From contig NMRA01000001.1 in assembly GCA_002633005.1 (NCBI GenBank), forward strand, positions 314,625-378,624: a DNA stretch of 64,000 bases. Direction: 5' to 3'. The DNA is from Phoronis australis. Lineage: Eukaryota > Animalia > Phoronida. Under the pieces are notes generated by a model, which had not been told where the DNA came from, searched no databases, and saw only the letters and a list, made by a program, of their open reading frames with translations. Below are positions 6,540-41,100 of the stretch, in pieces. The stretch's first letter is position 1. Each line of letters opens with the position of its first letter. Made by a program: the position numbers and the translations under genes.

Positions 6540-7290
6540 TTAAATTAGCGCGTAAGTAAATAACGACATATTTATCCAATCCATCGTTTCGGTTTATTTC
6601 ATTAAACCATTCTCAAGGTAACAGTTACAAACACAAAACAAGCGACACAGGTAGAGAAGAGACTACAGGTACACATCAAAATGCTGGGGGAGAGACCACT
6701 AGAAAGCAAAACAGTTGGAGCTCAAATGAACCAATGTTTCTATTGAGGTAGCACTCATCATGGTTCAACCGATTATGCATAGCCTCCTTTATGAGGAGCC
6801 TGAGGGTGACATTATCCTTGTCTAAGATCTGAACACAAGAGCAATCTACAGTGTGACCAGTTGTCAAGGAATGATTGAGAACAGCACTGTGTGTGTCTTT
6901 ACAGTGTTCTTTTACTCTTATGCTAAGAATCCTGTTTGTCATTCCAATGTAAACCTGTTCACAGTCACTGCAGTTGAGTTTGTACACAACATGACTTGTT
7001 TGAGAAATACTCAACGGTGTTTTAAGTCTCGACAAAGACAAAAGTCTGTTTACAGATTTGAAGATAGTAACGAGTTGCAAACATGGAGCAATAGCTCCAA
7101 GTATTCTCTTGATCTGCCTCTCGACTACACAACTACTATTACCTAAATAGGGGATATTGAGAAATACTTTCTTCAATTCAGGCCCATGATAAACATCCGA
7201 AGGTGTCCTGGACGGATGTTTATCATGGGCCTGAACTGAAGAAAGTCTCTCAATATCCCCTATTTAGGTAATAGTAGTAGTGTAGTAGGG
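6540..7290 (-). mobile_element. 5'-truncated Penelope-like retroelement (GIY-YIG endonuclease) with fold-back 5' end
   Basis: ORF 6676-7176 contains VVYKLNCSDCEQVYIGMTNRILSIRVKEH and LLIKEAMH...LNRNIG. Inverted repeat about 7124-7199 / 7213-7287. Hammerhead-like motif at 6585-6617. Confidence 0.85.
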
Positions 7291-8105: not shown

Positions 8106-11100
8106 TAGTCCAGTCATTCTACGGATAACCCGGAAAAAATTGCAACCGAAGGTTTTATTGCATAAATCGTATCCTTTCACACCCCTTAGTGGGAAAAAAA
8201 AGTACCGGAATCAGAGTGGCGGAAGTTGGTTTTTCAAGAAAGCGGACAAAATGGCCGCCAGATTTTCTGATGCTCACTATAACTCAAGAGTGGAATGTGA
8301 TAGAGTAAAAATTCGAAAAGGTTTACCTATGTTTTGTTGGTCAACAAATACATTGGAAATGGTTTTGCATGGCTGTGGTGATACCGCACTCCGCCATTTT
8401 CCAAGATGGCCGCCAAATCTACTAATTGAGTCGCACAAATTTCGCACGAACAGATTTATAGTGTGTCGTCTTGCTTCAAACGTCGCATCATCGGTTTTCT
8501 GGGTCGACTAATCCACTTAGACTCTTTGCGTTTGGCTCTAATTATTACTTCCACCATTTCTGTCAAACATGGTTTAGGGATGTTTATAATCAATTATAAA
8601 ATCAATTACATTTATTNTTTTCATTACACCATATCTTATATGTCAATTGTCATTTCGTGTTTGATTTTACTTTATTTCTGTTTTTGTTGATAAAGGAAGT
8701 TGTTACCTCCGAAAATTTCAAATTTCAGTTGATCCATTCTTGTTGTTTAATTTACCGATTTATATTCTTCATTTCACGAAACAATAGTATCCTTGGGAGG
8801 ATCTGGATCGCCTTATTTAGTTTCAGATATATTTTCTACGTTTGGAACTTAACAGATGTATGTATCGTGTAGAACTCAGTTTGATTAAATATATCGAAGC
8901 ATTAAGACGCTCTCTATCAGCTCTCTGCTCAGCACATCGAGCCACCTCATCTAGTTAACCCGCTAATACCCCACATTTTGGATCCCACAATTTCTAAGAT
9001 GGCCACCAAATAGTTGCTTCGTGTAAGAACTTCCGATTCCAGAGACACGCCATATCCTGAGTTTTTTAGGTCAACACGTCCATTACGATAAATCTTGTCT
9101 GGCTCTTGATCATTACGGCTACCATTTTCAAGATGGTTTAACAAACAACTTATTTGGTTCAAAAACATCAGGTTTGCCTGGATTGAAGGATCATTCTCCT
9201 CCTGAAAAAATGTACTGTATTTAAAATAACTCTCTGCAATTAATTCAGTGATCTACTATCCACACTGTCTCTGTCACTTCCAGTTAGTTGTAAATGCTAG
9301 TGAATCTCTACACAATCAACCAGTATTTACACAACCAATCTCTGTCAACTGAGAATGAATTGCTGCAGCTAAAACCACGGCATTCTCCACATTCAACCGA
9401 GTACAGCAATCCTAACTTCTTGCAAGTACATCTCTTGGAACTGCAGTTGGTCTTACATGAGCATCTCACTACTTTCAGCAGACTCTCTGGTGCTGCTGAC
9501 TGGTCCGTCGTCGTGGGAATGAATTTTCCACGTGCCAGCATCCATCCCCAATACAGCGAGTCTAGGCCACTGCCACGGAAACTTGACCGATCTTGCTCTT
9601 GATAATATGTCCCGGCAGCATGGAATTTAGTGACTGAAGAAAGTTGGTGATAATGACTGTATTTGGACTGTGGCTAGTCTGATACCTCATCCACAAATCG
9701 CCTGTATCTCAAGTCATCCAAATTTCCAGAGCCAGTGCTGCCATGAAGCACAGATTCAACTCTTACCAGCTTCAAATATGTCTTGCTTCAGCAGCATGTG
9801 TCTAGTCAATACTCTTACTAGAGTTTTTGCAGAATTCTCGATCTTGCAGTTTCTTCAATGGGAGAGCCTTTGCTAATACCGAACAGCTGTAATGTTGTGT
9901 TGCAACCACCTATTGCATGCGCAAATGGCACAACTGCGCAAGTTTCGGCACCAAGAGGCAACTGTAGTTCCTTGATGTCCCAGACTCTCCTCTTGCTTTG
10001 CTGCCTCTTGTCAAGTTTCATGAACATTGGAATTTGTTGTGAAGTACCATGGTAACACAAAAGAACCAACAAGTCTGTATCGTCTGCAATAAGGGTAGTT
10101 GGACCTTGTGCTGCGTTCTCTAATGCTGTTTCTACAATTAAAACATGTGCGTCAACTTGAGCTTGCACCACTGTGCAACCATCATTTCCTAGCAAACTTG
10201 ACAAGAAGTGAATGAATCGTTTGTTTTTGCTCTTTGCCAAAAATGTTCCTTTTTTACTTGATCACCATGTCACAATTGAAGTGAACTTCAGTTCCAACCA
10301 CCCCACCCAGTTTTCGTACATGAGAGAAATCTTTAGTTGATGGTCCATCTCTGTAACCATCAAAAACAACAGTAGGCTGGTGTAATCCACATAAGCTCTA
10401 CCAAATGACTGAAACGTTGCAACTCTAGGCCATGGAATACGGTGAAGGAGAGAACCGGTTTCAATTACATGCATCACCGTGTTTTCTGGAAATTGAAATC
10501 CTCCTCCAGTAGTCCCCTATGGACCAGAGTGCATCAGCTCATATTGATTTATTAGTGATTCTGGGAAGACCAGATGTTCCAAAAAGAGCAGGGGAACCAA
10601 CACACAGTTCAAACTTCAAAAGGCGTGATCAACTGTCACTGTTGTCTTTTGCAGCTGTCAGGTAAAGTTACTATTAGCAGCATGAACTGATTGACTAGTC
10701 ATTGCCACAACCATGTCTTTCTTTCTGAATGTGAAGTCTTTCACACTTGATCCCTCCATAGACAAGTGAACCGCTTTCCCCACTTCTCTGGCATTTTCGG
10801 CACTGACGCATGTGCCTGCAGTCACACCAGTTTCGATGTTCTGTAATGTTTCTCTTTAAAATGGGTTACTGTTGTGGAGGAATTCAACAAGGCTGCGGAT
10901 GTCTTGCCTGGGTACATTCTTTATGCTGCTGACTTGTTTCACAACTCAAGTTTGTCACAGTATGCATGGCACCATTTATACTTGAGCATGCCGGCAAGGA
11001 AAGCAGCCATGGTGCACTCTGTGTATCTCCCATTTCGCAACCTCTAGTTAAACCTCCTGTTGTTTTAATACCTTTCATGAGGGTTTGTTCAATTACAAGA

Positions 11101-13324
11101 TCATATCTCATTATGACAAGCCTGCCCAATATCTGTCACTTTGTCTTTTTGTGTGTTGGCCATAGATATCTGGACGGGTGTCTTTGAGTTGCTAGGTCTG
11201 CTGCAAGTATATGTATGAGGATTTTGCATAAGAGTTGTGACCAGCAGCTGCAAAGTAAGGCAGCATTTCAGAAACTGCTTTTAAGTGAAGCTCCAATTCT
11301 GACGTTATTTCTGCTTTTAAAAAGTCGAAGGATGTCAGTCATCTTCATATACTGTAGGCAAAGATTAATGATTCGACTTTACAAAGACAAGTCTGATCTA
11401 TGTGCTTCCATTTTTATGGATACTCACAAGACACTCCGACGAGCATACATCGTCGCACACAGACGACATGCCAGCAATAAGATCATCATACCGCTTCAGA
11501 CCAGCTTTCAAATCATCATGAAGAATATCATTGGCCATTGATTCTTCTGACGAGCTATTCTCTGTCACTGCGAATTCTGAAGACCTATACTCCTGATTCA
11601 GCCGTGTTTGAATATACCAATGGCAGTAGGTCGGAAGCCAGAAGTGAACTCTCGTGGGGGCATTCCACTGTAATCCAAGGTTCAGAATCGGAAGACACTG
11701 GCTGGGCATGGCATGCCCCAGAGTACACATCTTTTTATGTGATCAGTTAGGATGTCTGGGATGTCTGAAGAATCTGTCTCCATATTCTGATGAGCCAAAA
11801 TTTGTCTACAAGCATTGAACTGCTCCACCTCTTGGCATGGAATCTGTTTGTTCTGTGTTGGTGACATTCCAGACTGCTGGATTTTCTGAGGAACCTGAAT
11901 TTCTTTCTTCATTGGTTTTGGATTGGCGTTTCCTGATCTGTCAATATTTGGAAGTGGGATGTTGAATGTTCTGGCTTTTATGATGGCATTCAGTGCTGAG
12001 TCTACCAACATATGCCCCCTCAGTGCTCTATCCACACTTTTTCCATTTAAAATAAGGATCACACTGTTTGATGCATGCACCGTCTCAAGAAGTTCTTGAA
12101 GCCATGTGCCAGACATTACGTATCCGATAGATCCCAGAAAGCTCATCTCAGTATGAAATCTTCCAAGCCTGGCTAAGAACAAGTGACTGCACATCACTGT
12201 CGTTTTGTTTGCTGGCACTAATTTTTTCTAAAATCAGTTACATATGTTTATAAAAAGCATGCATATTAAACAAATTGTGAGTCCTAACTATTAAAATTTA
12301 ATTAATAATTTTTTGTTACACAACCCTTTTTGTTTTTCATCAAATTCAGGCGAAATCAGCAGCCAAATTCTCAATACATGCCAGCAGCAGACGAAATCGA
12401 TGCTTGGGAACAACTCATAATACCTCCAATAGCAGAGAAAAGGCCACTTCCTGCCCAATTTTATTAAGGGTTTGTGTAATGAATAAGCCAATAACTCCAC
12501 CAGAATAACATATTTTTCTAACACATATTATTTTTGATACCTTAAATGAATATATTTTACAGAAAAATAATTGAGTTTGTGAAATTTATTATGAAAATTT
12601 AACTAAAGCCTTTTCTGAAAAACACACCAACTTTTATGTTATATAATCTAAGATGTGATTATAATTCCACATTTAGTATCTAAATCTTAAAAACAAATTA
12701 TAGAAACAATCCACTCATTAACCCTGACTGCAGATTGTAAAATGTTTTTGTGTAAATGCGTGTCAGGTTACAAACAAAGTTTGCAGAACGTAAATGGGGT
12801 AAATTGGGGTTCGTGAATTGGCAGCCATTTTGGCGGCCATTTTGTCAACCTTTTTGATTTTTTTCGCAAACCAGTGACCAACTGTAAGGTCCAGATATTT
12901 TCAATTGTCTAGCATACAAAAGAATAAAACTTTTGCCATTTTCAGGGCAAAATATTAAAAGAAATCTTGCAACATGTACCAAATTGCCGTTGCGGCCGCT
13001 TTTTTGTCGGCCATATTGGTTTTATTTTACGGAAAACTGGCATCTTTTGATTGGTATGCCTGTTATGAAAAGTATATAATCAATGACAAACTTAATTGTT
13101 TTATTTTTAGCTGTTACATAAGAGTAATATGCCAGAAAACAGTAAAAAGTAGTTTTGTCGGCCATTTTTTCCGCCGTCTAGAAAAACCGACTTCCGCCAC
13201 TCCGATTTCGGTAGATTTTTTTTCTGACACCAAGGGATGATTGAAGATGCCATTTATGCAAAAAAACCTTCTGTTGCAATTTTTTCTAGGTTGGGCCCTC
13301 TGGAGCCCTAGAATGACTGGACTA
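8106..13324 (-). mobile_element. Degenerate AcademX-type DNA transposon (transposase + XPG-like nuclease + Cys8 finger)
   Basis: Imperfect TIRs of about 150 bp, from TAGTCCAGTCATTCTA (8106) to TAGAATGACTGGACTA (13324). Frameshifted minus-strand fragments: RLGRFHTEMSFLGSIG...RALRGHMLVD, DLVIEQTLMKGIKTTGGLTRG, GSLLHRIPW, ADDTDLLVLL, HAIGGCNTT..LFGISKG (XPG/H3TH-like) and RCSCKTNCSSKRCTCKK...CGECRG..C. Confidence 0.85.
9308..12218 (-). pseudogene. Fragmented Academ transposase/XPG/Cys8 reading frame
   Basis: Collinear ORF fragments 11682-12218, 11398-11730, 10884-11129, 10262-10477, 9818-10240 and 9308-9541, separated by frameshifts and stops. Confidence 0.85.
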
Positions 13325-13794
13325 AAATTGCTGAACAGACTGCGTGTGAAACCTATTACGTCATTGGATAATTTCAACACCTCTGTCTGCCGTCAGGTGT
13401 CAGGTAACGCAACCGAACGTGCCGTTATCGAGAAGAGATACTCGATCTGAATTGATACAAAATGGGTTGTTTTTTGGGTGGCATGGTCCTTTAATTTCTC
13501 ATTGCCTTCACCTATGGTGAAGCCTTATTGACGTCAGGCGCGCGTTAGCCAATAAGAATGAACATTGGAAAAACATTTTTTACAAAAATACTAAAGTAAA
13601 ACAAAGATGTGATTTATGCCAATCTAAGGACTTCGTTCATAAACTAAATTACATTAAAAATCAGGTTTTTGTACTTCAAGAACCTGTTAATCATGGCCTG
13701 ATGAATGTTATAACGGTGACGTAGGTGTAAGGCTTAGCCTACCCATGCAGCTATGAGGGCTTTTGCATTTACCTTGGCGTTTGTCGTTCCTTAA

Positions 13795-15177
13795 TTAGCA
13801 ACGAAAGTATGGAAATATTGCAAAAACGAAGGTTACAGTAGCAAGACAGGGGGAAGGTGACGGCAACATGGCTGCCGAGCCTTCACTTCCACCATGAGGG
13901 ATAGTGACGCTTGTTTTTTCTGGGCCGGCCTTCGCAGAAGTTGTTGAGACTATAGTTTTTGCTTCAATCGATTCGGCTCTGGACGTTTCACTTGATACAA
14001 CTTGACCGGTGGCAGCAGTGGAAGTCGCTGACCTTTGGGATGCTCTTGTAGCGGATCTAGTCTCGGGGGCTGACGTTTGTGGTGATGCAGCCGTGACTGT
14101 GGACTGGACGGTAGCCGCCGTAGTTGAAGTGTGAGAAGCTGGGGTGGATGTAGAAGATTTTACAACTTGACCAGCTGCAGCAGGGGAAGTTGCGGACCTT
14201 TGAGATGCTTGTGTAGCGGATCTAGGCTCGGGCGCTGACGATTGCGGTGACTCAGCCGTGACCCCAGATTGGACGGTAGCCACCGTAGCTGAAAGATGGG
14301 AAGCTGGGGTCGATGTAGAAGATTGTCTTTGGTTGGTTCGTGTAGTCATTTTAGTAGCGATTGAAATTTGCAAAGCAGCAGTTGTATGCTTTGGATTGCA
14401 AGTTGGAGTAGGTGGGTTAAACACGCCAGTTGAGGAACACGTACTCAAACTAGATGACTTCCTTCCGTTCTCCATCTGAAATCCTTGTTTGCAAGAAAAT
14501 AGGACTTTCTCGCCTCGAGAAACCGTTGGATACCCCAACTTGTTGGTGACTAAGGGCGAATTAGTAACGTCCGGTACAGCACATTGTTTTATTTTGGATC
14601 TCGAAGCACGAAACTGAAAACTCGCCTTGATACTAGCTCCTGTAAACCTATTGAAATTCATGAATGATTTTACATCAAAACGACCTCTTTGAGTACCCCG
14701 AAAACTAACAACTTGCCGCCGTTCTTGCTGGAAGAGAAAAAATTGATATCTGTGAATATCTCCGTCATAGGGAGGAGATGGGCCTCTATAGGACATTATA
14801 GAATCACCGCCATTATCGTTGGCACTCTCGTCTGTCAGAGTAGATCCGTTCACGTTCCGAAGTATCCAATGAAGCCAGTATCTCATCGTTGGTTGGTCTG
14901 GCGAAGGTGCGTCGGGGTCTACCATAAGAATTGAATACAGCTCCTCGTTATTAGCGTTTTGCCACTTTACGACGGGTTTATAAGTAGCCTTGCTCTTTGG
15001 ATAAATGTACTCGTTACATTTCGGAACATACATGTTCACAGTGTTCGAGAGATAGGACACTTTCAGAGTGGATGATGAGTTGATGCAAAATGAGTGTCTG
15101 TATTCATCAACTGTTTCTATCTGTACAAAAACAGTGAAAAACAATAAGACTGTGATTAAACAAAGTGCCGATGCCAT
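13795..15177 (-). CDS. Intronless cell-surface/secreted PEBP-family protein with Sushi (CCP) domain, mucin-like stalk and GPI-type C-terminal signal
   Basis: 460-aa ORF. Hydrophobic N-terminal signal (MASALCLITVLLFFTVFVQI). PEBP motifs MVDPDAPS, YWLHW, YRGPSPP, HRYQFFLFQQ. Four-Cys Sushi pattern (CAVP...VLFSCKQGF...STCSSTGVFNPPTPTC). S/T/A-rich stalk. Ends GGSEGSAA + spacer + hydrophobic tail. Confidence 0.9.
   Translation of the reverse strand: MASALCLITVLLFFTVFVQIETVDEYRHSFCINSSSTLKVSYLSNTVNMYVPKCNEYIYPKSKATYKPVVKWQNANNEELYSILMVDPDAPSPDQPTMRYWLHWILRNVNGSTLTDESANDNGGDSIMSYRGPSPPYDGDIHRYQFFLFQQERRQVVSFRGTQRGRFDVKSFMNFNRFTGASIKASFQFRASRSKIKQCAVPDVTNSPLVTNKLGYPTVSRGEKVLFSCKQGFQMENGRKSSSLSTCSSTGVFNPPTPTCNPKHTTAALQISIATKMTTRTNQRQSSTSTPASHLSATVATVQSGVTAESPQSSAPEPRSATQASQRSATSPAAAGQVVKSSTSTPASHTSTTAATVQSTVTAASPQTSAPETRSATRASQRSATSTAATGQVVSSETSRAESIEAKTIVSTTSAKAGPEKTSVTIPHGGSEGSAAMLPSPSPCLATVTFVFAIFPYFRC
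13994..14323 (-). repeat. Two tandem 165-bp (55-aa) coding repeats in the stalk
   Basis: SSTSTPASHLSATVATVQSGVTAESPQSSAPEPRSATQASQRSATSPAAAGQVVK followed by SSTSTPASHTSTTAATVQSTVTAASPQTSAPETRSATRASQRSATSTAATGQVVS. Confidence 0.9.
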
Positions 15178-16022
15178 GGGAATTTTTCGAACGTGGAAAC
15201 TGAAACGTTACACGCGACATAAAAATCAAATCAGAATCACGAGACCCAATGCACAAAAATGTAGCGTTCATTGGCCCTTCGTGTCTGTGTCAGAAATGGT
15301 CTTTGAAAATGTTTGTAAGTCGTACTATACATGAATATAATTCACCGTTTATCGGTGACCTGTGTAAGTTTCAGAAAGACGTCTTGTGCAAAGGGCAAGG
15401 GTTGAGAAATGCGGATTTGAAAAAATCTAAGCCCAGTAAAATGTACCGATCATGGACCATTTGTGTCGATTTCAAAGTGCTGATATGAAAAATCCCCAGA
15501 AATACATTGTTTATCGGCCATTACTGTCGGTTTCATCGAGACGTCTTCTTCAAAAGGCAGGGATAGCCACTCAAAACTTGCCGTTGGACCGTAAATAATG
15601 AGGCAACCTCGGCAACCATACATCCCGAACTCGAAATAAGCGTAAGCTGGCAGGTGTAGCGAGACTCTCGCGTGACCGCTTCGTGATAATCCATGTCCCG
15701 CGGCTGTAGTGTGCGGATTGCAAAACATGTTCAAATTCTTGAAATGAGCCGTTTGTCGGCCATTTGTGTCGGTTGCAAGCATGTTATTAGCAGCAACACA
15801 TCCGACAATAGTTTTGTCATTTTCCCCTCGTCGTGAACACAAACTTGTCGTAACTGAAAAAGGTACGGATCTTTTTATGATGATCACCAAAACGCTAGAA
15901 TACGTTACATATGGCTAACGTTGTCATATAATAAACGTGTTTCGATTTTTTCTCTCTTGACGTCATCTAACTCTGAACAAATTTTTGAAAATGTTTCTAC
16001 TTGAAAGTGATCGTCCCGCATA

Positions 16023-17090
16023 TTTTTATGCGCCCACATATTTATATGTGGACGCATTATGCCGTCATCTGTGTCCGTCCGTCCGTCCGTCCGTCCGTCC
16101 GGGCGGCGTCCGTCCGGCGTCCGCTGCTCTATCTCCAAAACCCTTTGGCATACGTTCATGAAATTTGGCACATATGTTCCATTCATGAATGGGACGGCAT
16201 GTGCGAACTTTCGGACGGATCCGCCTACCGGTGTGCCCCCTAGTGGCAATTTTAGTTTTTTACGCTTACCTTTGTATCTTCAAAAGTCCTGAACGGATTT
16301 TCATGAAATTTGGTATGTAGGCACCTATTAGTGCGATGACGCTATCCTCCCGTTTTCGGATGGATTCGACCTAGTTTGCGACACCCAGTGGCCATTTTTA
16401 CTGTTTTTTAGTCTGTTTTTTGGCGTCCACCCCTCTATCAACCAAACCGCTATAAGTATGATTGTAAAAATTGGCATGTATGTTCTTACTATGAAGAGGA
16501 CGGTTGACGCTGAATTTCCCATGACTTTGGTTACTGTGGCGCCTCCTAGTGGCAGTTTTTTTTGCGCCCATGGCTGTATCTCCCAAACCGTTTGCAGGAT
16601 CTTTACTAAATTTAGCAAGTGTATTCATGTGATATTGACAACGGACGATGACGTTTAGGATGATTCTGACTACCGGTATGCCTCTAGTGGCAATTTTAGT
16701 ATTTTACATTGACCTCTGTATTTTCATAGGTCTTCAGGTGTATACTTTGTGTTACTTCGTGACTATGAAGGAAAAGTTCCAAGTAGAAATTTGTTTCTGG
16801 CATTCTAATGCTGTGCTAATCTCGTATGTTGGTAAATTTATTTTTAATTCTATGTTTCTGTGGTGCTTTAAGCAACTGATGTATAGGATGTGCTTGTATT
16901 ATGAAGATTACTCACATTTGCCCGTGGCCTATTGAGGAGACAATGACCATGCCTTTCCATTTTGCAAAGTACAACATACTACATATATGCCCTCTACTGG
17001 CCACTTCATGGTACCAATAAACAACCCTAGAAGGATACCGTATGCGGTTGCAATTGTGGGCGCATTTCAACGCTCTGCGTTGCTCTTGTT
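16023..17090 (+). mobile_element. Helentron-associated non-autonomous element (HINE/DINE-1-like)
   Basis: 5' subTIR ATGCGCCCACA with adjacent inverted copy TGTGGACGCAT, (GTCC)n microsatellite at 16073-16100, internal tandem units, 3' subTIR TGTGGGCGCAT, hairpin CAACGC-TCT-GCGTTG, T-rich insertion site. Confidence 0.85.
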
Positions 17091-17639
17091 CGTGATGTCG
17101 TCGATAATTATCAGTATTTCGTCAAAATCTTGGTCCGGCATAAACTCAGAACCCCTGTCTGTGGTTATTATATTCACCTCACCATCGCTGTGAATCTTAC
17201 TTTTAAGAGAATGTCGGATTTCCTTTCGGAAGTCTGCAAAACGTCAAACGTGTTTAATGGTACATGTAGACATCAGAGCGATAAGGTCCAGCCCAATGAG
17301 ATATATAACTAGTGTATATAGCTCATTGGTCCAGCCCCAGCCTATCCGTGAAAGTTAGGAAATAGATGAACAACAAAAACAGCAACAAAATCATCGTAGC
17401 TACTGGTACTACTAATTATAATGACAACTAATTTAGTAGTAAGTTTGAAATTGCTACTGATTCAAAGCGCTTCACTTAGTGATCTGGCCGTATCCGTCCC
17501 AACTTTGCCCGAGTGGCGTTTTCGCAGATGACAGGATCGTGCAGACGATTAGAGGAGGCATTCCATCATTCATTGAAATTGAATGTGCGTGCTTGCTACA
17601 TCATTATCGTCGACATTATTCTTGGCGTTAAATTATCTA

Positions 17640-29100: not shown

Positions 29101-32100
29101 ACCATTATTTATTAAGTGAAGTTTAGCTCAAGCAGCAGAACAATCGACTGCGGTCACAGGGGTTGCAGCAGCCGAGGGGGTTACAGTGGCCATGGGGATT
29201 GCTGCAGCTATGGGTGTTGATGTGGCTCTGGGGGGTGCTGCGGCTCTGGGGGGTTTCAGCGGACGTGGGGTTTGCTGGAGCCGTGGGGGTTGCAGCGGCT
29301 CTTAAGATTGCTATGGTCGTGGAGGTTACAACAGCCGTGGGGGTTGCTGTGACCGTGGGGCCTGCAACGGCTGTGGGGATACAGTGGCTATGGGGGTTGT
29401 TGCTGATGGCCGTGGTTTCAGCGGTCATAGAGTTGCAGCGGACGTGAGGGTTTGCTGNGCAATGGCTGTGGGGATACAGTGGCTATGGGGGTTGTTGCTG
29501 ATGGCCGTGGTTTCAGCGGTCATAGAGTTGCAGCGGACGTGAGGGTTTGCTGCCGCCGTGGGGGGTGCTATGACCATGGGGGGTGCAGTTAAGTCTGTAC
29601 TGGAGCCAACCTAATAAAATCAATTTTCTCAACAACACTGTCCATTTAACCTAGTCAAATCAATTGATAAGTGAGACATACATGTAGCCGCATTGTGCTA
29701 GTCTGCGTCACTGTGAGAAAACAGCAAACAACAAAGGCAACCTAGTTTTGAACATTTGCTGTTATCAATGTTAGAAGTATGCATCTGCCGCGGGTAGTGT
29801 ATACTGAATAGAGCATCAATGGATGACGCTGTTGCTTGCAGCTGCTTGAATTAACTGAATGTAACCACGGTGACTTACATGTTGATGAAAGTCCGGCAAT
29901 AAGCCATTAACCGTTCATTGCATTTCGCAATTTATGACCTTAGTGTGAACAACGTGAATGCCTTTAAAATGTTGAAGGAAGAAGATTCACATGGTTGTGT
30001 TACCGTTCATGGTAGGCTTTAAACCTGCTAATCTCCAATTAATAACAGCGACACCTAGTGTTCAGTCACGGAATTAACCCAAGTCAAATCTAAAATTAAT
30101 ACAGATTTAAACGATACAGGAGATGCTCTTTCCTAAATAGTAAACATCCTTACTGTTAACAAAAGTCATACACTCCTCATTCCATCTTCCAAAAGTCACA
30201 CATTCTATCCAAACAGACATGACATTAGGCAAATGCTGGTCAAGTAAGAAGATTGCGTAATAAACAACTGAGTAGTATCGTCATCTATGAAAATCCCAAG
30301 GTACTGTAGCTGGGTGTGCAAATAATGAAGCTGTTACCAGTAACACACATGTCAAGGGCCTGCCTTCATACTTTCTCCCAACAGTGCATCTCAAGCACGA
30401 TACTGACCTCCGTCTCTTGTCTGCGCCTCTTGGATCCACCTCCCCGCCATCTCCAATTCATCCTCCGCGACATTTGTCTGAGTCTCCGCCTCTTCTCGCT
30501 TCACTGTCTCGTCTGTCACTATCACCTGGCAACAAATCAGCAGACGTCTGTCATTCACACTCAACAACCACCCAATCACATTGGCTGGCATTTGGGTCAC
30601 CACATGACATCATTAAGTCAAACACTAAGATGGCAGACGATTCGATTCCTCGTTGCTAGAGAAAGGTAAATAGAGGTGAAATATGATTGGTAAGACCATT
30701 TGCAGTTTTCGAAACATGTCAAGGGAGTTTGATTGGGTTATTACTAACACACTGAACAAGCACTTTCCTCCCATTCTTTTGACCAAGTGGTGAAAAGCCC
30801 TCCGGTGGACTTTCAGCACTGTTTAAGAGCTGAGTATTGGCTAGCGACTAATGTACACTTACCTTTGTGGAAGGCTTGAACCCTGGAACTTGCACACCCT
30901 TGAGCAACTGCAGAACATTGTCTGCTTCGAGGTCACCAGAGCAGACGTGAATGCCATGTACGTCTGCTATTAGTCTGGCCGTGTGGATAATGAAAGACAC
31001 GTGTCTGAAGAAAAAAAGATAAAAGTTACGATGAAAAATGGTGACACAGGAAGACTGGTTCTATGGCAGCAGATGTGTGTAAGAAAGGTGTGCCACAATA
31101 TATCTGGGCCCAAAACTGGTTCTATGGCAGCAGACGTGTGTAAGAAATGTGTGCCACAATATATCTGGGCCCAAAACTGGTTGTACGGCAACAGACGTGT
31201 GTATGAAAGGTGTGCCACCATACATCTGAGCCCAAAAACGCCACAATTTCCTCCGTTTTATGCAATCACAGCTTTTCCATAAAACCTAAAAGTTTTGATA
31301 GCCGCTCACAAATAAGCGACACAATTTAAAACAATTCCTACAAGTATTTTAAAGAACAGTACATACAGCTGGACGTTTTATATGAATTTGTTATTAAGCT
31401 ACTTCAGAGATATGATGTTCTGCAGTTAGCCAAAGTTGGACATTTTTCTGGGGTCCTTTCATTATTAAGAATTTAATGAGCACTGCTCATTGTTGACATA
31501 TCAATGTCATTTGTAACAACAAAAACATAATTTGAGGTGAACATTTTTTCATAGTAAATCATAAACTCAATACATTAAGAATGTTTGCATATTTGATGTT
31601 TTCATTTCAATAATGCCATGGCCGAAATTGATATTCATTAAACTAATTGCTTAGCTCTCAGTGCAGTGTTAACATTAGACACAATCGGCAAATTTTTTTA
31701 TAGATTTGCTGACCCTGCTTAATAACAAAATGATATCTTACACTGAATCTGTGGAATCAAACACCACGGGGGTAGGAGGTCTTTTGGGCGACTGCCAAAA
31801 CAATGCTGTAAAATGAAGATAACAATATTTTCTGAAAAATAATCTAACTGCTGTTTTTTCAGAATGTAAGAACTTCAAAGGTCAGAAAAAGTAAACAATG
31901 AGAAACAGTGCACGGTTGACTTCAGGCATAGCAATAACATAAAACATACAGATATGAGATTGATAAGCAATTTCCTCATCCACTTGCACAAAAATCACCA
32001 CTGACTAAAAGCCCCTGCATGATAGATAGAGATGTCTGATTTTATTTGTTTTCAGGAACACGAAAATTTAATGTAAATTCCTAAGTTTCGTGTTTCGTGA

Positions 32101-35100
32101 TCAGCATCATTCTGCTACGTTCTTACAACAGATCACATTTTATTTTCAATTTAATACCAAACATACTCTAAAATACATCTAAAATTTAGTGAATCATCCT
32201 TTGCTTGGCCTACGACAGAAATGGTAAGGTATTCCTGCCGGAAATGATCACGTGGTCTTGTTGTCATGAAAGCATAACGTCAAAAATTTCAGATACCAAC
32301 TTACTGCCATCTGGTAACTTCCTGTCTAGAGGGAACGCATGAAGAAGCTGTTTAGCCTGCAACACCAGATATCAAGGTTAAATATCAAGGACAAATATCA
32401 AGAACCAATTGAAGTTCAAATATTAAGGTCGAATATTGAGTTTGAATATCAAGGTCAAATATCAAGGTCAAATATCAAGGTCAAATATTAGGCTAGCATA
32501 AAATCAAGGTCTTCAAATAAAAAACAAATAATTTGGTTATACATTACAAACTAAGAAACAACTCTTCACAAATTCAGTGCACTGAAAACATGAAATGGAT
32601 GTTCTAGAGTTTGACTCAAAGGGTTGCACTGGTTGAATGCAAAGTAACATGTAGGAAAGTGCTCACTTTTTTCAACATGCTACACAGAGGATGATTCCTT
32701 CATTATGAACAGGACAGAGCATCATTGATTCTCTGTTGCATAATATTGGCAGAAAATGAGAAAAATATATTTCATTAATATTATGCCTTATTTGCAAAAT
32801 AAAAGAAACACTAATTAAAGTGTTGCAAACTACTTACTGGTTGTAAACTAGTAAGAGGGCATTGAGATGTGAAATTATAGATAAATGAGACTTGTCTCCC
32901 CTGTTTGCTGACTGTATGTTACAAGCTCATATGTCACAGAAAACAATGCTGCAGTCCACCACTGTCAGCTGGCACAGTGTAGGCTTCTCATGATGTGACA
33001 GATCAGGTGTCAAATTGCCAAAAATGTTTTATCTCAAATTAACATGACTACCATGCAGCCTAAAATTTAGTTTTTAATTAAAATTCATTTTATTTAAAAA
33101 TTATAATTAATTGTAAATATTTTTGACACCGAAGAGACATCACTTCCTAATTTAAGACCATGAGCAAAAGAAAAATCAACCAGCACAACAGACTTGAAAC
33201 AGATTTCATCAAAACATTAAGAAATTCAAATCAATACCTTGTGATTGAAATTCTTCTCAAACCTAATCCTAGCCAATCTTACACAGTCACAAAAGGATGT
33301 CGGACGACACGTTAGAAGTTTACTGGCCTGTAGAGCGCCATCTATGGAGCAGCCGCTGGAGAGTTTCTGAGATAGAAATAGCAATTTTCTTTTCAACTGA
33401 CAAAATTAATGTGAATTGAGTGCTTGGTCCACATATTAATTTCAAATAATTCCAAACCACGTACACAGATCACAAAGTTATCAAATTATGTTAAATGCAC
33501 TGGACTCTCAGTCCAATTTTACACAAAAAGTTTCAAGTACTTACTAAAATTGCAATTTTCAAGTTGACATCATCGACATAAATGCACATAGATGCTATTG
33601 AAAGTCACTAATTGACACTTTCTAAACAATAATCCAAACCTCCCCAGTCCTCCCTACCTCAAGTTGCCCAGTCACCCAGTCACATGTCAGTTGAACCCTG
33701 TTTTGTGAGTGTCTGAACAAAGTGTAGTTTTTTGGATAAGACTTTTGAAGTTTACCCTTACTTGCAGAATGCCATACAAACCTTTCGTGAATAATGAAAC
33801 TTGATAAAACATCAACACTACTCAGTTATTGAACAAAATGTACAGCGTCAAACATCCCATATCAGTTTGAATTAATTATGCAAATCAAAATTAAAGAACA
33901 AATCAGATTGCACAAGATGAAGATGCCATTTTGAATTGATTAGATAAATTTGAAAAAATTAACCAATCAGATTCACAAATTATAGCAACATCATTTCAAA
34001 GTAATCATGCTTGACTACCAACCTCTGCGACCTCTTCATGCTGTGGGTGTTCAGACCAAAATTTGTTGAATGCTTCTGGCTTTTGGGTGAATGAGCTCAG
34101 AAACTGAAACAACACGGTTTAATAGAAACTTTCACCACTTAAATTATCTTGAAAAATGGACTGCTTGTCTGACCAGACTATATCTTTAACTGCAATCAAA
34201 TTTGAATATTCATTTATGAAGCAGATCGGAAATTTCCAATCTGTTTAACACCCACCTCAAAGCTACGGGTAACACTTATGTGCGCATGTTATCAGACTTG
34301 AAGTGTTTACTATGAGAATTTAGTTATCATCTCAGTCAAGAAAGTATAATTCTAGTTTACTCAATAATATTGAAAGCTAACAAAACAATGGATACATGCT
34401 AACAGTATTCAGACAACACGACACAAAGTACCCATCGTAACAGCTGGGAAGACGTTGAATTCATGAGAGTACCCTTATCAAATGTCTGAGAAAGAAGGGA
34501 ATTCAACAGGAACCTTAACAGAGTGATGGCCATTTTGTAATTAGATTTTTTTGCAGTTCACAGAATGAGCCATCAACACAGGGGAACTGTATTACATCAG
34601 ACAGATTTTGTCGTAGATTTGTAAGTCTTCAAGATAATCTAAGGTTGATATTAAAAATGATTACGCATGAAGGTGATTCAGAAACAAATCTTTGTACTTT
34701 TGGTCAAAATTAGCAGTAGTTACATTGTTAGTTAGTAACTAGTTGCACTACAGTTAGTATTTTTAGTAAATAGTTACTAAATAATTACCTTTTCTCTGGC
34801 CCACTGTATACAATGTTGAATGGTGGCCGGGAAAGACTTGAGCGTACAGTAAGGAATGTCTTCATCCACCGGATCTTGCTATAGTTGGAGAAAGTAAACA
34901 GGGTCGTGTGATTCACAGAACGTGACAATTTTTGTCCTAATTGATGAATTAAGAAGGAATATGGGAGACTGGTCATAGAAGTCACAAATACAATTTATGA
35001 AGATGGGCTTTCAACTTGAGTAATGGTCGGGACATGCCCGCATTTTGAGAACCAGTTTCCTCCACAGAATAATGGACATCGAACTGGTTCTGAAAAGATG

Positions 35101-38100
35101 AGACGTTTCACACTTACTAACATTGCAACTTCCATTTTGCATCATCCTGCCTCCATCCATCCTACCCTGGACCTACATGTTGCTAAATATGACCTCTGAT
35201 AAAACAGGCCCCAGAAGGTCAACACCTGCAGAATTTAAACAGACCTGACTTGTGTATGACTCTGTCAAGTGTGGCACAATAACTTGCACATGACCTTTGG
35301 CCCCCATTGTTCCTGACTCCAGCAGAGGCTTCTGATTGGACACACAGCGCCTGCAAAATGGCCAATCACAACAGGATAGTTTATGTTCTGTCAGTTAGCT
35401 GTTATTTAGAAATATCCACAAGCTTGAAACCAGAGCAGCAATACACTGAAAAGAAAACAGTACTCAGTTTCATGTCAGTTCCCCTATCACATAACTATAA
35501 TTGTGCCCGCGGACTAACCTCTGTACTACAAACTTGACTCAAAAACGGACCAATGGTATGGCAAGCATGCTTAGGCTAAACTTACAAATTTGTACTCGAA
35601 AACTGCAGCGTAACTAAATCTCCTTAGAGTACGAGTCAATCCTGAGTTTGGAGATAAGACACTGGTACCTGATTTCAAAAATTCCATTAAAATTCGTCGT
35701 AAATCACCATAAGTTGACAAAACAAAATTTTAGAATTCCTTTATTGCTCTTTTAGCCACCAAGTTTGTCCAGGATTTTCTATGAACGTCTCTTCTTACAA
35801 GAATTTGTAGCAAGTTAAAGACTCAGTAAAACTACTGGAAGTTTTTATGATAGCATTAGTTATCTGGTTAACTTTTGTCAGTAACTAAATGATCAAAATT
35901 TGTAAGTCATGTGCTATAGAGGAAATTACAGTGAGACCTGCAAAGATCACACTTCTAGCAAAAATCTAGTCACAAAATGTATTTCTGCAATCATCAAGGA
36001 GTTTAAAAATAAGATTCCATGTATTTAAAAGACATAATTGAAGAATTTCCTTGGCACCAAGAGAAGGTATTTTAAAATTCATCCTTTTACGCACAAAAGA
36101 CGACGGTGAAAATTTACTCTCAACAAATTAAACTAAAACAAAAATTCACAGACAATGACAACTGTGTCATACCTGTCCATATATCTTCTGGCTTGAACAT
36201 TATCCAGAGCGTTCACCGCAACATCTATTCCTTCAAAGAATCTATCTGGATATGCTGTGGATTCTGTTTGAGGGCACACTGTGAGTAAAGTATTGCACAA
36301 TGAATAGCACAGCATGTTGGTGGCGGCAATAGGATACGTGGGACCACCGACTCTTACTGCCACCTGGCTGTACCAGGAATAACTACTTTTTTACAGGTGG
36401 CATGGGGGAACGTGCTGACTTCATGAAAAGACCCGTTGGCAGCGCATGTGATTCGACGGGATGCAACATCATGCAACAAGCAAACTTAAAAGATCAGTGT
36501 ATTTAGATTTGTTTTATGCAAAACAGCCCCAGAGGAAATTCACTAGAAACAATTGCTTTGAAATTTTGCACATTTTGAGAAAAGAAATATTGACTGTCAA
36601 GAGAACTCGGTTTGGGAAATTAATAATCACAGTAAATATCATCATGATGATGTCTTTACCATCGACTATGATTACCATTAACACTTACTATATACCATTA
36701 CCATAACTGTGTACCATAACTGTGTACCATAAATACTGTACCAATACCATAACTGTGTACCACAACTGTGCACCATTAACATTAAGTGTTTACGCTTACC
36801 ATTTACCAGTATCAAGTCTATAACCTGAAGGTCACCATACCTAGGTGTTGTTGAGCCTCTATGTTAAGTTCTTTGTTTATCTCCAGTATCGCCATGGCAG
36901 CCGTTTTACTCTTGGGTTGTTGAATATGTTGGGAACGGAACAGAAACTGCCTGTTGAGGTTGGACTTCTCAATCAGGTCATTGTCAGTGACCGTGACCTA
37001 GTTAGCAAGATAAAGAACAAATAAAGTGCCATTCAGAATGATATGCGTACATAAAAGCTTTCAAGCACAGCAAACAATACTGCAGTCTGATTGGAGGCAA
37101 CAACCATCACATAGACCTTGTCTAATAACATACATTCAATGAAATAATATAAAAATGCAAATAAACGGCATTATATTGATGGTCACTTTTTTATCATCTT
37201 TATTTATTGTTACAAAATAGCATGACTTCTAAATCATATCTTAACCAGAAATAGTGATTATTACGGTGAGTTGACAAATGAAACAAAAAGTGGGGGTTAG
37301 GGCAGTGAGCAAGGGTTAGGGAAGTGGGCAAGTTAGGGCAGTGGGCAGGGGTTAGGGCAAAGAGTAAAAGTTTCTCAATTTAACTTTAATTTGAAACCTA
37401 TTCTTAATCATTAAGGTCAAAAAGGTGATTGGTGCTGAGTTCCAAATTCATTTACCGTATTCACCTAATAAGCACCCAGGGCGCTTAGAAAAATTCGCTT
37501 CAGGAAGGGGGGGGCACCTATTATAGCCCAAAGTGGTTGAAACCCGGTCTCCGAAACAGGTGAAATCGTAAGCTAGAATTGATCAAATTTACACTCTGTG
37601 ATGCATCTGTAACCTATGACAGAGTTTCTACAAAATTGCAGTGCATTGCTATCAGACTTTGCTGTTAAATTACAAGCATTTTTCAGAAAATCCCAGTGCG
37701 AAAACAGGCTGACTGATGCGCCGCTGCCTCGCAATCGCCGACAGGTCAACTTGAATTCTTTATTAAAAATACAGTTTCGACTCAACAAATTACCCGAAGT
37801 CCTTCTTAAGTCTTCAAAATAGCGTCACTAACATTTCTAAGTTCCTCTTGAGTCGGGATTAAGTACATATTAAGTACAAATCGGCGCTAGATCGTACTTT
37901 GCCACACGAGAAAAATCTCTGGACGAACACGCGTTGTTGTCACGTGATGTTTGTTTTAAAGTTCGTCTGCGTGACTGTAAATGAGTGAGCGTGTGCGTGT
38001 CATTTGCCTGAGGGTAAACACGAAGTAACGATCTGGGTGTGCATTGTAACTAAAAAAAAATAACAAAAGAAGTAAAAACAGAACGTGTTTTATTTAGCAC

Positions 38101-41100
38101 TTGTTGATCTCATCTGCTAAAAAACGTTCGAGAGTTGTCTTGGTAAGGCCGATATTGAGTCACCGGGTGACTGGATGCGTGACAGTCTAACAGACTTATT
38201 TTTCGGGAGATTCGGGGGTGTAAGGGTGCTGAAGTGTTCACTATCAGTGGGTCATTTTAACTTAACACCAATTACGATTAATTTAATAATTCCTCCTAAA
38301 AATAATGCAAAGTTAACATTTTTTATGGTATTAGAAACTTTCAGAAATAAGTGTCAGTATTCATTTCTTGCCGATGCTATGCTACCCGTTTCATGAATAG
38401 ATAGTTCCCGATGACTAATCTTCAATGACAGGTACTTGTATGTAGTGTGCACTTCCTCGCCACGTGCTTTTAACAAAGGTCAAGTTTTTATTAGTCTTTG
38501 ATTCGCGGTTTTCAAGTATATTTGGATTCCTGTTGAGGGCGAAGATCTGTACAGGAAAGATACAATACAATCCTTTGACAAGTACGCTGCGTCTGTTTTG
38601 AAAGGCAAGACCATAATAGGACACGTCCCTCGCATTATTTTTGAAGCACGACAGAAGTTAGAAGTGTACAGTCACGGCTAAAATACCGGCATAGTAGCGA
38701 GGCTCGTGGTCCACAAATTCCGCTCACAATGATTTTTTCAGGACTGTCGGATCTTATTGATAAATTGAAGACATTACTGTAGAGTTTTAGAAATGTAGGT
38801 GAAGCATTTTTCACATATACACGGCGATCATGGAATGGGCGCTTATTTTTAGCAAAGTCTGAAAACGCGTGGGGGATGCTTACAGGGGCATGGGCGCTTA
38901 TTAGGTCAAATGCAGAAGTTCACAAAATCTACTTTAGGCATAATTGAAAAAGAGAACTTCACATCGCTAAAAATAATAAGGGGGTGTTATTTAATTTTCC
39001 TTTTAACAGTCAGAATTAATCAGGCATTGAACACAATATTTTTTAGCCTAACAAGACAACTTTCCTGGCAGAAATTACTAAAGGCCCATTCACACAGCCG
39101 ATCATGCATGAATCACTCATACAACACGCACAAATTCAAATTGACCAAATTTTCCGGGTGTAGAGGTTAGAAATCACTGACAAATAACTGACGAATCACC
39201 TATGGCCCACGCACATATCACTTACAATCACTGATGAATCACTGACATATCGCGCATATCGATGCATACAAACCAAAATGATATGTTTGTCAGTGGATGT
39301 CAGTGGAATGAACGTCATATATGCGTATTTCATGCGTGATATGAAGGTGGGGCGTCAGTGGACGGACGTGGACGTGCGTGATTTCGAACCAGTTCTGACG
39401 CATAAGCACTGATAGCAAACGCGTGTCCAGCGCATAATCACGCATACTCGACGCATAAACTACGCACGTCAACTCACGAATTACGCGCACCGACGCAGAG
39501 TTGTGCGTTGGAAAATTTTTGAACCGTTCAAAACTCAAAATTGCGCACAAACCCCCCTCGATGCACATCCACATTGGTTCCACCGACCAATTATGCATAC
39601 GACGCAAGCTTCACGCATAAGCGAAAATCTGTGCGTAATTCATGCGTAATCGGCTGTGTGACTGGGCCTTAACAAAACACTCGACTTTCACTCAACATGC
39701 GATTTAAAGTGATCTGGTGTGATGTTGCTACAACTTCCAAGATTGTTTTACAAAAAGCACTCCCAGTGTATCTTGGAAAGCAACAAGCCACCTGACGACT
39801 TTTAAGGAGACAAAAGTCGAACCGTTTACGACTTCAGTGCAGACATAGTAGAGAAATCATGTAGCTTACCTTTCCACCAGCAGATGATATCCCCAACATG
39901 GCATAATTCTTCAACATTTCACAGCCAATAGCACCACATCCAACCTTCAAATGTCAAAAAGACACAATAGTCAAACACAAGCACTGGCCAAATGATGAGC
40001 AATTGTGACAATTGTGAATTTCATATTTTTGTTGCATGAGGATTTTGTAATGTCGAAATTTGCAGCCCATCCCAACAGAACATTTTTGGTGGCATCAGTG
40101 AGACATTCTATTCAATACACACAGTGCATGTCCTGAATATTTTGCCTTTGGAAACCTGTTTTTAATCAACTAAGGTTCCCGGGTTGCTTTAATAAACTTA
40201 CAATAGAAATATATGGCTTTGTTTACTTAATTAAAAAAACATGAAATTTGCTAAAGGTGTAGTGGGTCGGCAATTTTTTTATGGCGCGCACGTTTCAAAT
40301 TAAGTTAGGCACATAATAGAACCACTTGAGGCAGCCATATCTTGCCGAATGCACATCGGGTGGCAGCACTGGCTAACATGGTCGCATTGTTGGCTGTGCT
40401 CGACTGATACAAGATTTCTGACAGTTATGTAATATATAACAGAAACACTTAAGTTAAAAGACGAAAAAAATACAGAAACAATTCCCCATGATCCCAGAAA
40501 CTGTAACAGTACTCACCATGAATAGATTCAGATCTGCCAACTGTCTACATACTGAGTCTCCCACACATATCCTCAGAGGGTCATAGCGGTCATTTCTGCA
40601 ACAAGAACACTGTTTCAAACTGATGCTTAGTGCCACGACCTATGCCTGGATTTCTTGAAAGTGCCACACTATGTAATTAGCAATTGTTAGGGAAATTAAC
40701 ATTTGTGTTTCATGTGGGCTGTGGCTGGCTATGTGCTGGCAGCTGGGAAGTGAAATAAATCAGTCGCGTCCAGGATTGCGGTGTATTTCTCACTTAATTT
40801 CTATTCTGAAATTAAGGATCAAAGGAATTCACTTTTACACAATCAGTGAGCTTCATTTCTTCCAGTGCTATCATGTAAAATGAGAAACCCAAACTCGCCA
40901 TATTCAAGAGCCAAATGAAGGGGTTCTACCCATTGGCAAAAACATGTTCTAAGACACAGATTTTCACATTTACCAAGTCGATCAACATTCAGTGCCATTT
41001 TTTTTCAATTTTGGTCTTATTTAGCGCTGTTTGCCGGTTCAATATTCATCAAAAAAATCTCTTTTTTTCTCAGCAACCATGTCGCATCAAGCGAAGATTT

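What the first reader, a model, noticed from the sequence alone, without database searches (positions are those of the whole stretch)
13795..15177. PEBP domain on a Sushi + mucin stalk + GPI-type anchor: candidate new class of cell-surface PEBP protein
Seen: one intact ORF with signal peptide, a PEBP domain retaining the ligand-pocket motifs (DPDAP, WLHW, GPSPP, HRY), a four-Cys Sushi module (Phe at the usual Trp position), a stalk of about 165 aa and a GPI-like tail. Established: PEBP/RKIP/FT proteins are mostly single-domain and cytosolic, PEBP4 is secreted, and Sushi + S/T stalk + GPI is the layout of the complement regulator CD55/DAF. I know of no described PEBP-Sushi fusion, but I could not search. 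Inference: an anion/phospholipid-binding or serine-protease-inhibiting head displayed above the glycocalyx, perhaps in invertebrate innate immunity or gamete surface recognition.
Basis: partly seen in the sequence, partly recalled or inferred. Interest (0 to 1): 0.85.

Follow-up and report, generated by a model that had tools for sequence, protein, structure and literature searches.

The report
Stalked surface PEBP with Sushi module
An expressed invertebrate gene joins a lipid-head-binding (PEBP4-like) domain to a Sushi module, a mucin-like stalk and a likely lipid-anchor signal, a combination not found in the databases searched, so it would likely hold a ligand-binding pocket out from the cell surface, and most of its RNA comes from what is likely a second copy with a changed pocket loop.

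Summary
13795-15177 (minus strand) is an intact 460-codon ORF. It has a hydrophobic N-terminus, PEBP (Pfam 62.1 bits), Sushi (26.5 bits, cut-off 20.7), a 171-residue stalk that is 39% Ser/Thr, and a GPI-like tail. A predicted model matches PEBP1/RKIP (Z 18.6) and C1s CCP1 (Z 9.1). Stranded RNA covers the ORF with no intron-type joint listed. About 95% of reads come from a diverged copy that keeps the PEBP-Sushi linker in frame but has a different pocket-rim loop. The PEBP is of the secreted PEBP4 type, not cytosolic RKIP. No other PEBP-Sushi protein turned up in any search. The claim of a new class is too strong: leech and starfish database proteins already have signal + PEBP + GPI-like tail without Sushi, and Toxocara TES-26 already joins PEBP to small ShK/SXC modules. 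CD55-like complement regulation is unsupported. Best reading: a lineage-restricted, membrane-tethered PEBP4 variant that recognises phosphate-bearing head groups, with diverging copies. GPI anchoring and function are untested.

The parts
13795..15177 (-). Whole ORF, 460 aa, no intron needed
   Evidence: RNA depth in every bin from 13709 to 15220 on one strand, no intron-type joint listed
15112..15177 (-). Predicted signal peptide, aa 1-22 (cleavage site uncertain)
   Evidence: hydropathy; no SignalP available
14590..15111 (-). PEBP4-type PEBP domain, aa 23-196, with the Cys31/Cys54 pair and no C-terminal helix
   Evidence: Pfam PF01161; model pLDDT 87; VIA-align to PEBP1 residues 9-176, Z 18.5-18.6; Cys conservation
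14755..14805 (-). Pocket-rim loop, aa 125-141, so different in the abundant second copy that reads stop aligning here
   Evidence: loose ends at 14754 and 14807 in X1 (90, 106 reads) and X2 (68, 61 reads), translated by hand
14584..14607 (-). Linker, aa 191-198, between PEBP and the first Sushi Cys; same length and in frame in the second copy
   Evidence: loose end at 14579 (64 and 62 reads), translated by hand
14398..14583 (-). Sushi/CCP module, aa 199-260, four Cys
   Evidence: Pfam PF00084; VIA-align to C1s CCP1, Z 9.1, rmsd 1.8, 65 aligned; PDB sequence hits to CR1, CR2, factor H
13882..14394 (-). Ser/Thr-rich mucin-like stalk, aa 262-432
   Evidence: composition
13996..14324 (.). 165-bp tandem duplication inside the stalk; stalk length differs in the second copy
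   Evidence: joints 14147>14354 and 14280>14354
13798..13881 (-). GPI-like signal, aa 433-460 (small residues, spacer, 15-residue hydrophobic tail)
   Evidence: crude rule; small-residue site and tail kept in the second copy
15200..15205 (-). TTTCAG, an acceptor-like site 22 bases before the ATG, near where RNA depth ends; may mark a 5' UTR intron or a trans-splice site
   Evidence: sequence; depth falls to 0 beyond 15220; no joint or loose end listed there

Best explanation
The gene encodes a PEBP4-type domain, one Sushi module, a Ser/Thr stalk and a hydrophobic tail in one expressed frame; the protein is likely secreted, likely GPI-anchored, and would likely act as a tethered receptor that binds phosphate-bearing head groups, such as exposed phosphatidylethanolamine, on membranes it meets. 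Shown: frame, domains, pocket residues, transcription, and a second sequence type in the RNA with the same layout. Predicted: the folds; the Sushi starting where PEBP1's C-terminal helix starts, so it would lie near the open side of the pocket; a Cys31-Cys54 disulfide (inferred from conservation). Inferred: signal cleavage, GPI transfer near G433/S434, O-glycosylation that stiffens the stalk, the ligand class, and that the two sequence types are paralogues whose altered pocket rims bind different ligands. The architecture is about 0.95 sure, GPI anchoring about 0.7, head-group recognition as the job about 0.45.
For: Both domains pass the Pfam cut-offs and fold as such. Human PEBP1's pocket has 16 residues (list in PMC3338619, passages read). 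Mapped by motif spacing, 10 of the 13 core ones are identical here (D87, A90, P91, W101, H103, G132, P135, P136, H142, Y144). Y81, V107 and G110 are replaced by M98, R131 and S134. L180, Y181 and L184 have no counterpart, as the structural match ends at PEBP1 residue 176. That pocket holds phosphorylethanolamine, phosphate, phosphotyrosine and short-chain PE, PS, PG and PA (same paper). The nearest named relatives are PEBP4 or PEBP4-like. Cys31 and Cys54 are in 48 and 47 of the 51 rows of that clade against 14 and 19 of 87 outside. Human PEBP4 is secreted and glycosylated, and is reported to move to the membrane and protect against TNF and complement-dependent damage through its PE-binding domain (PMC6755245, section 4 read). 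The second copy keeps the linker frame, Cys199, the small-residue site and the hydrophobic tail while changing many neighbouring residues.
Against: No ligand, localisation or function data. The GPI call rests on a crude rule that also passes 2 proteins that do not look like GPI proteins (P0027, P0098) among 5 of 138 and misses P0117. The signal peptide lacks basic residues and a clear cleavage site. Only about 3-5% of reads (42 of 1284, 46 of 995) match the window's own copy at 99% or more. The pocket is conserved across nearly all PEBPs, including those with protein ligands, so it does not name a ligand. In the abundant copy the G132 position reads Ser and the loop is at least 3 residues longer, which could weaken or abolish head-group binding. 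The IQ-TREE run gives the window's domain no starred small clade, and its bootstrap had not settled.
Confidence: 0.45

Rival explanations
1. It is a self/non-self or gamete recognition receptor: the PEBP head is a variable protein-binding domain and the Sushi a spacer, as with the Ig + Sushi fester receptors of Botryllus.
For: Divergence between the two sequence types is patchy, strongest at aa 60-69, 125-141, 175-178 and 191-197 plus a 15-base deletion near aa 44-49. Of 28 codons hit by the 32 coding differences shown, 22 change the residue. Expression is uneven: 1284, 995 and 17 reads in three runs of similar size. Fester-family receptors place one Sushi under a variable head (PMC12582321, passages read).
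Against: No cytoplasmic tail. Only two sequence types are seen. 22 of 28 is about what neutral change gives; the shown differences are 40 of 272 rows and lie mostly in stalk and tail. Tissues are not known.
Confidence: 0.2
2. It is a tethered protease inhibitor guarding the cell surface.
For: The yeast PEBP carboxypeptidase Y inhibitor is a structural match (1wpx, Z 17.0). Serine-protease inhibition by mammalian PEBP1 is recalled, not read.
Against: The match reflects the shared fold, and 19 PEBP entries rank above 1wpx. A search for PEBP with serine protease and pocket terms gave one unrelated paper.
Confidence: 0.12
3. It is a CD55/DAF-like regulator of an invertebrate complement system.
For: Sushi + Ser/Thr stalk + GPI-like tail; the Sushi matches CR1, CR2, factor H, CD46 and CD55 modules by sequence. 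PEBP4 is reported to protect against complement-dependent killing.
Against: One Sushi only; known regulators use three or four in a row (recalled). The matches are generic: in the CR1 and CR2 alignments shown the best single modules reach only 11-12 bits, and the CD55 entries score 17-19 bits.
Confidence: 0.08
4. The window's copy is a young, weakly expressed duplicate or retrocopy on its way out; the working gene is the other copy.
For: The ORF has no intron although it joins modules that are usually separate exons (recalled). Own-copy reads are 3-5%. Likeness to the abundant RNA stops 66 bases after the stop codon (loose end at 13729). The gene lies among repeats.
Against: The frame is open for 460 codons despite well over 10% divergence from the other copy. 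It keeps the family's pocket loop better than the abundant copy does. No poly(A) remnant lies at 13729.
Confidence: 0.1
5. The two sequence types are alleles or come from cryptic species rather than paralogues, and the tail is a short anchor or is shed, giving a secreted mucin-like PEBP4.
For: No genome or DNA run was available to place the second type. The hydrophobic tail is only about 15 residues.
Against: Both types occur in both X1 and X2 with the same strong bias, with almost nothing at 95-99% identity (2 and 1 reads), and the 3' UTRs become unrelated.
Confidence: 0.1

Closest known systems
Vertebrate PEBP4 and invertebrate PEBP4-like proteins (Mytilus A0A6J8E1K6, Octopus, Saccostrea, Lingula)
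   Same: Hydrophobic N-terminus, Cys31/Cys54 pair, pocket core, domain ends just after the last strand; 38-41% identity to the Mytilus protein.
   Different: Those are mostly single-domain proteins of about 180-240 aa; this one adds Sushi, stalk and tail. One-to-one orthology is not shown.
Helobdella robusta T1F6Q8 and Acanthaster planci A0A8B7XZA2 (uncharacterised database proteins)
   Same: Hydrophobic N-terminus (clear in the leech protein, short in the starfish model) + PEBP4-type domain + GPI-like tail; the leech protein has a Pro/Thr repeat stalk too.
   Different: No Sushi; 26-31% identity; not grouped with the window in either tree, so the tails may be independent gains.
Toxocara canis TES-26
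   Same: Secreted PEBP joined to small ShK/SXC modules (PMC13747963, PMC8398310; passages read; that these are six-cysteine modules is recalled).
   Different: Two ShK/SXC modules rather than Sushi; found in secretions, and no stalk or anchor is mentioned in the passages read.
PEBP1/RKIP (PDB 1bd9, 1beh, 2qyq) and plant FT/Hd3a/TFL1
   Same: Fold (Z 18.2-18.6) and 10 of 13 core pocket residues.
   Different: PEBP1 is cytosolic and has a C-terminal segment bearing pocket residues L180, Y181 and L184, which is replaced here by linker + Sushi.
CD55/DAF
   Same: Sushi + Ser/Thr stalk + GPI layout (layout recalled).
   Different: One Sushi instead of four (recalled), a PEBP head, and only generic sequence likeness.
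Botryllus fester/FF receptors
   Same: A variable N-terminal head on a single Sushi in a duplicated gene family (PMC12582321, passages read).
   Different: Ig head, three transmembrane helices, multi-exon genes; no homology beyond Sushi was tested.

Membership tests
PEBP family (PF01161) | Pfam score above cut-off | tested here: met
   62.1 bits against 24
PEBP family (PF01161) | PEBP fold | tested here: met
   model pLDDT 87; Foldseek E 7.5e-13; VIA Z 18.6, rmsd 2.9, 158 aligned
PEBP family (PF01161) | Anion-binding pocket residues | tested here: met
   10 of 13 core residues of the list in PMC3338619, mapped by motif spacing
PEBP family (PF01161) | Binding of phospho-ligands | not testable with these tools
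   needs a binding assay
PEBP4-type secreted subfamily | N-terminal Cys pair | tested here: met
   Cys31 48 of 51 and Cys54 47 of 51 in the clade, 14 and 19 of 87 outside; invariant in the 18 rows of A1
PEBP4-type secreted subfamily | Groups with PEBP4 in a tree | tested here: inconclusive
   FastTree: starred 51-row clade with vertebrate PEBP4 (96). IQ-TREE on 42 rows: on the PEBP4 side of a 97/98 branch, but in no starred small clade, bootstrap unsettled
PEBP4-type secreted subfamily | Cleaved signal peptide | tested here: inconclusive
   hydrophobic aa 2-20; no SignalP; cleavage site unclear
PEBP1/RKIP type | Cytosolic, with the C-terminal segment carrying L180, Y181, L184 | tested here: not met
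   structural match ends at PEBP1 residue 176 and the Sushi starts next; hydrophobic N-terminus
Sushi/CCP module (PF00084) | Four Cys, Pfam cut-off, CCP fold | tested here: met
   26.5 bits against 20.7; C1s CCP1 Z 9.1, rmsd 1.8, 65 aligned; the fold used an alignment with 8 Sushi rows, so it is not independent of them
GPI-anchored proteins | Small-residue omega site, spacer, terminal hydrophobic stretch | tested here: inconclusive
   passes a crude rule; 69 of 5000 shuffles and 5 of 138 family rows pass; NetGPI not available
GPI-anchored proteins | Release by PI-PLC | not testable with these tools
   experiment
CD55/DAF-type complement regulators | Tandem array of three or four Sushi modules (recalled) | tested here: not met
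   one Sushi stretch; no other match in the window by tblastn
CD55/DAF-type complement regulators | Decay of C3 convertase | not testable with these tools
   experiment

The most novel reading that the evidence does not exclude
PEBP has been recruited as the variable recognition head of a small family of GPI-anchored surface receptors. The Sushi module takes the place of PEBP1's C-terminal helix beside the pocket, duplicated copies rebuild the pocket-rim loop to see different phospho-ligands on microbes, damaged cells or gametes, and related anchored PEBP4-type proteins in leech and starfish mark an overlooked surface role of the family across invertebrates.
Probability: 0.2. Interest if true: 0.75.

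Novelty: new variant of a known kind. Interest (0 to 1): 0.45.

Why it matters
Secreted PEBP4 is known mostly from cancer studies and its extracellular ligand is unsettled. A natural version tethered on a stalk, with two copies that differ in the pocket rim, gives a direct way to ask what extracellular PEBPs bind: express both heads and compare. If the copies see different ligands, PEBP joins Ig, lectin and LRR folds as a recognition scaffold in invertebrates. If not, it is one more lineage-specific domain shuffle of modest weight.

Tried and rejected
No whole genome is held, so paralogues and the parent locus could not be placed. Run search: no RNA holder listed; four same-label runs were offered. 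Single-sequence fold: pLDDT 35.9, unusable. Word-based homologue search with aa 20-265: 0 of 297 candidates. Profile search of longer proteins: 1 of 7972, a fungal Zn2-C6 fusion without Sushi; weak evidence by the tool's own note. ESM Atlas, whole and aa 25-265: no usable hit; this shows neither absence nor novelty. Metagenome scans: 0 of 130 stretches; 154 of 237 with the alignment, best 80 kept. L024, L025 and L034 seemed to span both domains (query 56-234) but are PEBP + low-complexity tail without the Sushi Cys, and no locus of 80 matched the Sushi (best E 0.66). The exact protein is not in the 15-billion collection. Alignment A2 misplaced the Sushi rows and was not used. He et al. 2016 on PEBP4 secretion was not held and is cited only through a review. 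Paper searches gave nothing to the point. Earlier findings by sequence, nearby place and relatives: none. Rejected: assembly chimera (reads continue in frame across the linker); hidden intron at the depth dip 14314-14514 (the dip fills at 80% likeness, and the two joints have AT..TA and CA..TA ends with replaced letters); Phe for Trp as a defect. No complex was predicted, as no partner is known. Supplementary files were not opened; large tables there could list such an architecture.

Full report
Observation. Window 13795-15177 on the minus strand is one open frame of 460 codons, the longest of 7 frames of 150 aa or more in the 64 kb. Pfam finds PBP at aa 62-172 (62.1 bits, cut-off 24) and Sushi at aa 199-260 (26.5 bits, cut-off 20.7). 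Aa 2-20 are hydrophobic. Aa 262-432 are 39% Ser/Thr without Cys and hold a 55-aa duplication. The last 28 residues read small residues, spacer, 15 hydrophobic residues, end. tblastn finds no second copy in the window.

Structure. Folded alone the protein gave a useless model. Folded as aa 21-264 with 30 PEBP rows, 8 Sushi rows and a part of itself, it gave mean pLDDT 87.0 and pTM 0.76. Model residues 4-176 align with PEBP1 residues 9-176 (Z 18.5-18.6, rmsd 2.9, 158 aligned). Model residues 177-244 align with C1s CCP1 (Z 9.1, rmsd 1.8, 65 aligned). The Sushi therefore begins where PEBP1's last segment begins. PMC3338619 (passages read) lists 16 pocket residues of human PEBP1. By motif spacing, 10 of the 13 in the core are identical here, three differ (M98, R131, S134), and the three from the C-terminal segment (L180, Y181, L184) have no counterpart. 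I could not see coordinates, so the position of Sushi relative to the pocket and the disulfides are inferred.

Family. The closest named relatives of the PEBP part are PEBP4 or PEBP4-like proteins of Mytilus, Monodelphis, Tiliqua, Eptesicus, Octopus and Saccostrea, at 41% identity or less. A FastTree of 138 domains (rows scoring 40 bits or less, or under 120 aa, left out) puts the window in a starred clade of 51 rows with vertebrate PEBP4. An IQ-TREE run on 42 chosen rows puts it on the PEBP4 side of a 97/98 branch but in no starred small clade, with unsettled bootstrap. Cys31 and Cys54 are in 48 and 47 of the 51 clade rows and in 14 and 19 of 87 others. A hydrophobic N-terminus is in 31 of 51 against 37 of 87, so that trait separates the groups poorly in this set. 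Human PEBP4 is secreted and glycosylated (PMC6755245, section 4 read). The host is an invertebrate animal by these relatives; the lineage was not fixed. The top hit is a Styela protein with 58 Sushi repeats, whose rank comes from repeat number and says little about lineage.

Transcription and a second copy. Three raw RNA runs and one contig set under the same species label were laid on the gene. At 80% likeness X1, X2, X3 and X4 gave 1284, 995, 17 and 1 records. In X1 and X2 depth is continuous from 13709 to 15220 with all first mates on the plus strand, which in most stranded libraries means minus-strand RNA. Identity is bimodal: 42 and 46 reads at 99% or more, 2 and 1 at 95-99%, the rest below 95%. 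At several listed sites in X1, 4 to 8 reads carry the window's letter (for example 4 of 102 at 13743, 5 of 109 at 14533, 8 of 144 at 14934), while at the listed stalk sites none do; in X2 they are seen at the stalk sites only. So the window's own copy is weakly expressed and about 95% of the RNA comes from a diverged type. That type shows no intron-like joint, and its listed coding indels sum to whole codons (12 of 30 rows shown). Two joints in the stalk indicate another stalk length. Its 3' UTR becomes unrelated 66 bases after the stop. I translated the loose-end lines by hand. The linker reads T-S-N-Q-Y-V-V-Q-C in frame into Cys199 (64 and 62 reads), which rules out an assembly chimera. Near the tail it reads I-P-D-G-G-E-G-S-T, keeping the small-residue site. 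After G124 it reads N-D-M-D-F-Y-E-S-P, and before H142 it reads R-P-D-G-V-R-N-D-A-I. The pocket-rim loop is thus changed and at least 3 residues longer; that both pieces come from one transcript, and that the gap between them keeps frame, is inferred. Of 28 codons hit by the 32 coding differences shown (40 of 272 rows were printed), 22 change the residue. This is about the neutral share and mostly stalk and tail, so it is no proof of positive selection. Paralogy is more likely than allelism but was not shown, as no genome is held.

Is the architecture elsewhere? phmmer of aa 20-265 against 1.84 billion representatives gave 2135 hits at E 0.001 or better. Of the best 150 listed, plus P0003, none carries both domains. 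A fused relative should score on both parts and rank above the 66.9 bits of the last row unless very diverged. The other searches were also blank. A paper search for 'phosphatidylethanolamine-binding protein' with 'sushi' gave 13 papers, none on such a protein by title and abstract start (listing only). 'PEBP, GPI, signal peptide, invertebrate' gave one, on secreted mealybug PEBPs (passages read). The library lacks most subscription papers. Against the idea of a new class: Helobdella T1F6Q8 has signal, PEBP, Pro/Thr stalk and GPI-like tail, and Acanthaster A0A8B7XZA2 has PEBP and a GPI-like tail. Unnamed P0117, P0102 and loci L012, L030 and L031 (fungal-looking, inferred) end in similar hydrophobic tails (P0117 failed my rule, the others were not run through it). 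Toxocara TES-26 joins PEBP to two ShK/SXC modules (PMC13747963, PMC8398310; passages read). What is new is the Sushi insertion and the diverged pair.

Mechanism. I commit to a GPI-tethered head-group receptor (0.45). The signal peptide sends the chain into the secretory path. The tail is likely exchanged for GPI near G433/S434. The Ser/Thr stalk is likely O-glycosylated and extended. The Sushi likely acts as a rigid spacer or side wall at the open face of the pocket. The pocket likely binds phosphoethanolamine-type or other phosphate-bearing head groups on neighbouring, damaged or microbial membranes. The known ligands of the pocket and the reported membrane-protective, PE-domain-dependent action of PEBP4 are the basis. 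Rivals: variable self/non-self or gamete receptor (0.2; compare fester, PMC12582321, passages read), tethered protease inhibitor (0.12), decaying duplicate (0.1), alleles or shed mucin (0.1), CD55-like regulator (0.08).

Context. The gene sits among repeats. 137 of the other frames of 70 aa or more, plus the 6 long ones, were scanned in Pfam; the only hits at E 0.001 were three E1 ubiquitin-activating-enzyme pieces at 30.9-42.4 kb. Nothing in the neighbourhood points to a function. Earlier AI notes on PEBP heads on phage fibres and on a collagen stalk are analogies only and were not checked.

Verdict. A real, expressed, apparently undescribed domain combination: a new variant of the secreted PEBP4 type, not a new class. 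Interest 0.45; 0.75 if the copies prove to be a diversifying recognition family (probability 0.2).

Noticed in passing
P0066 (Helobdella T1F6Q8), P0152 (Acanthaster A0A8B7XZA2), P0117, P0102, L012:1845-2687, L030:1218-1886, L031:794-1462: PEBP proteins ending in GPI-like hydrophobic tails without Sushi, in leech, starfish and fungal-looking sequences; I found no paper describing anchored PEBPs.
   Followed up: partly
window 30851-42369, minus strand: Exon pieces of a UBA6/UBA1-type E1 enzyme gene (Pfam UBA_E1_SCCH and ThiF; best PDB match UBA6).
   Followed up: partly
window 15922-17127 and 13309-13509: Repeat-like stretches with very deep RNA cover (800-2100-fold, mostly one strand, for the first) and many joints and loose ends in all runs.
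   Followed up: no
window 15200-15205, minus strand: Acceptor-like TTTCAG 22 bases before the ATG, close to the end of RNA cover; a 5' UTR intron or trans-splicing is possible.
   Followed up: partly
window 6676-7263, minus strand: GIY-YIG-like frame below the Pfam cut-off (16.8 bits), likely a Penelope-type retroelement remnant (label recalled).
   Followed up: no
window 9308-12227, minus strand: Broken frames with a Cys-rich motif, likely a degraded DNA transposon (recalled; no Pfam hit at E 0.001).
   Followed up: no
window 58459-59403, plus strand: 314-aa frame with a hydrophobic start and an acidic low-complexity body, no Pfam hit, ending in a 780-bp tandem duplication (59267-60820, 98%).
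   Followed up: no
window 45775-45847, minus strand: tRNA-like match (Rfam RF00005, 50 bits) inside a region with an inverted repeat at 45851-46020.
   Followed up: no
P0027, P0042, P0069, P0086, P0110, P0112, P0106: Other PEBP fusions among the hits: PH + two PEBP (5 proteins), PEBP + SVWC, GYF_2 + PEBP.
   Followed up: no
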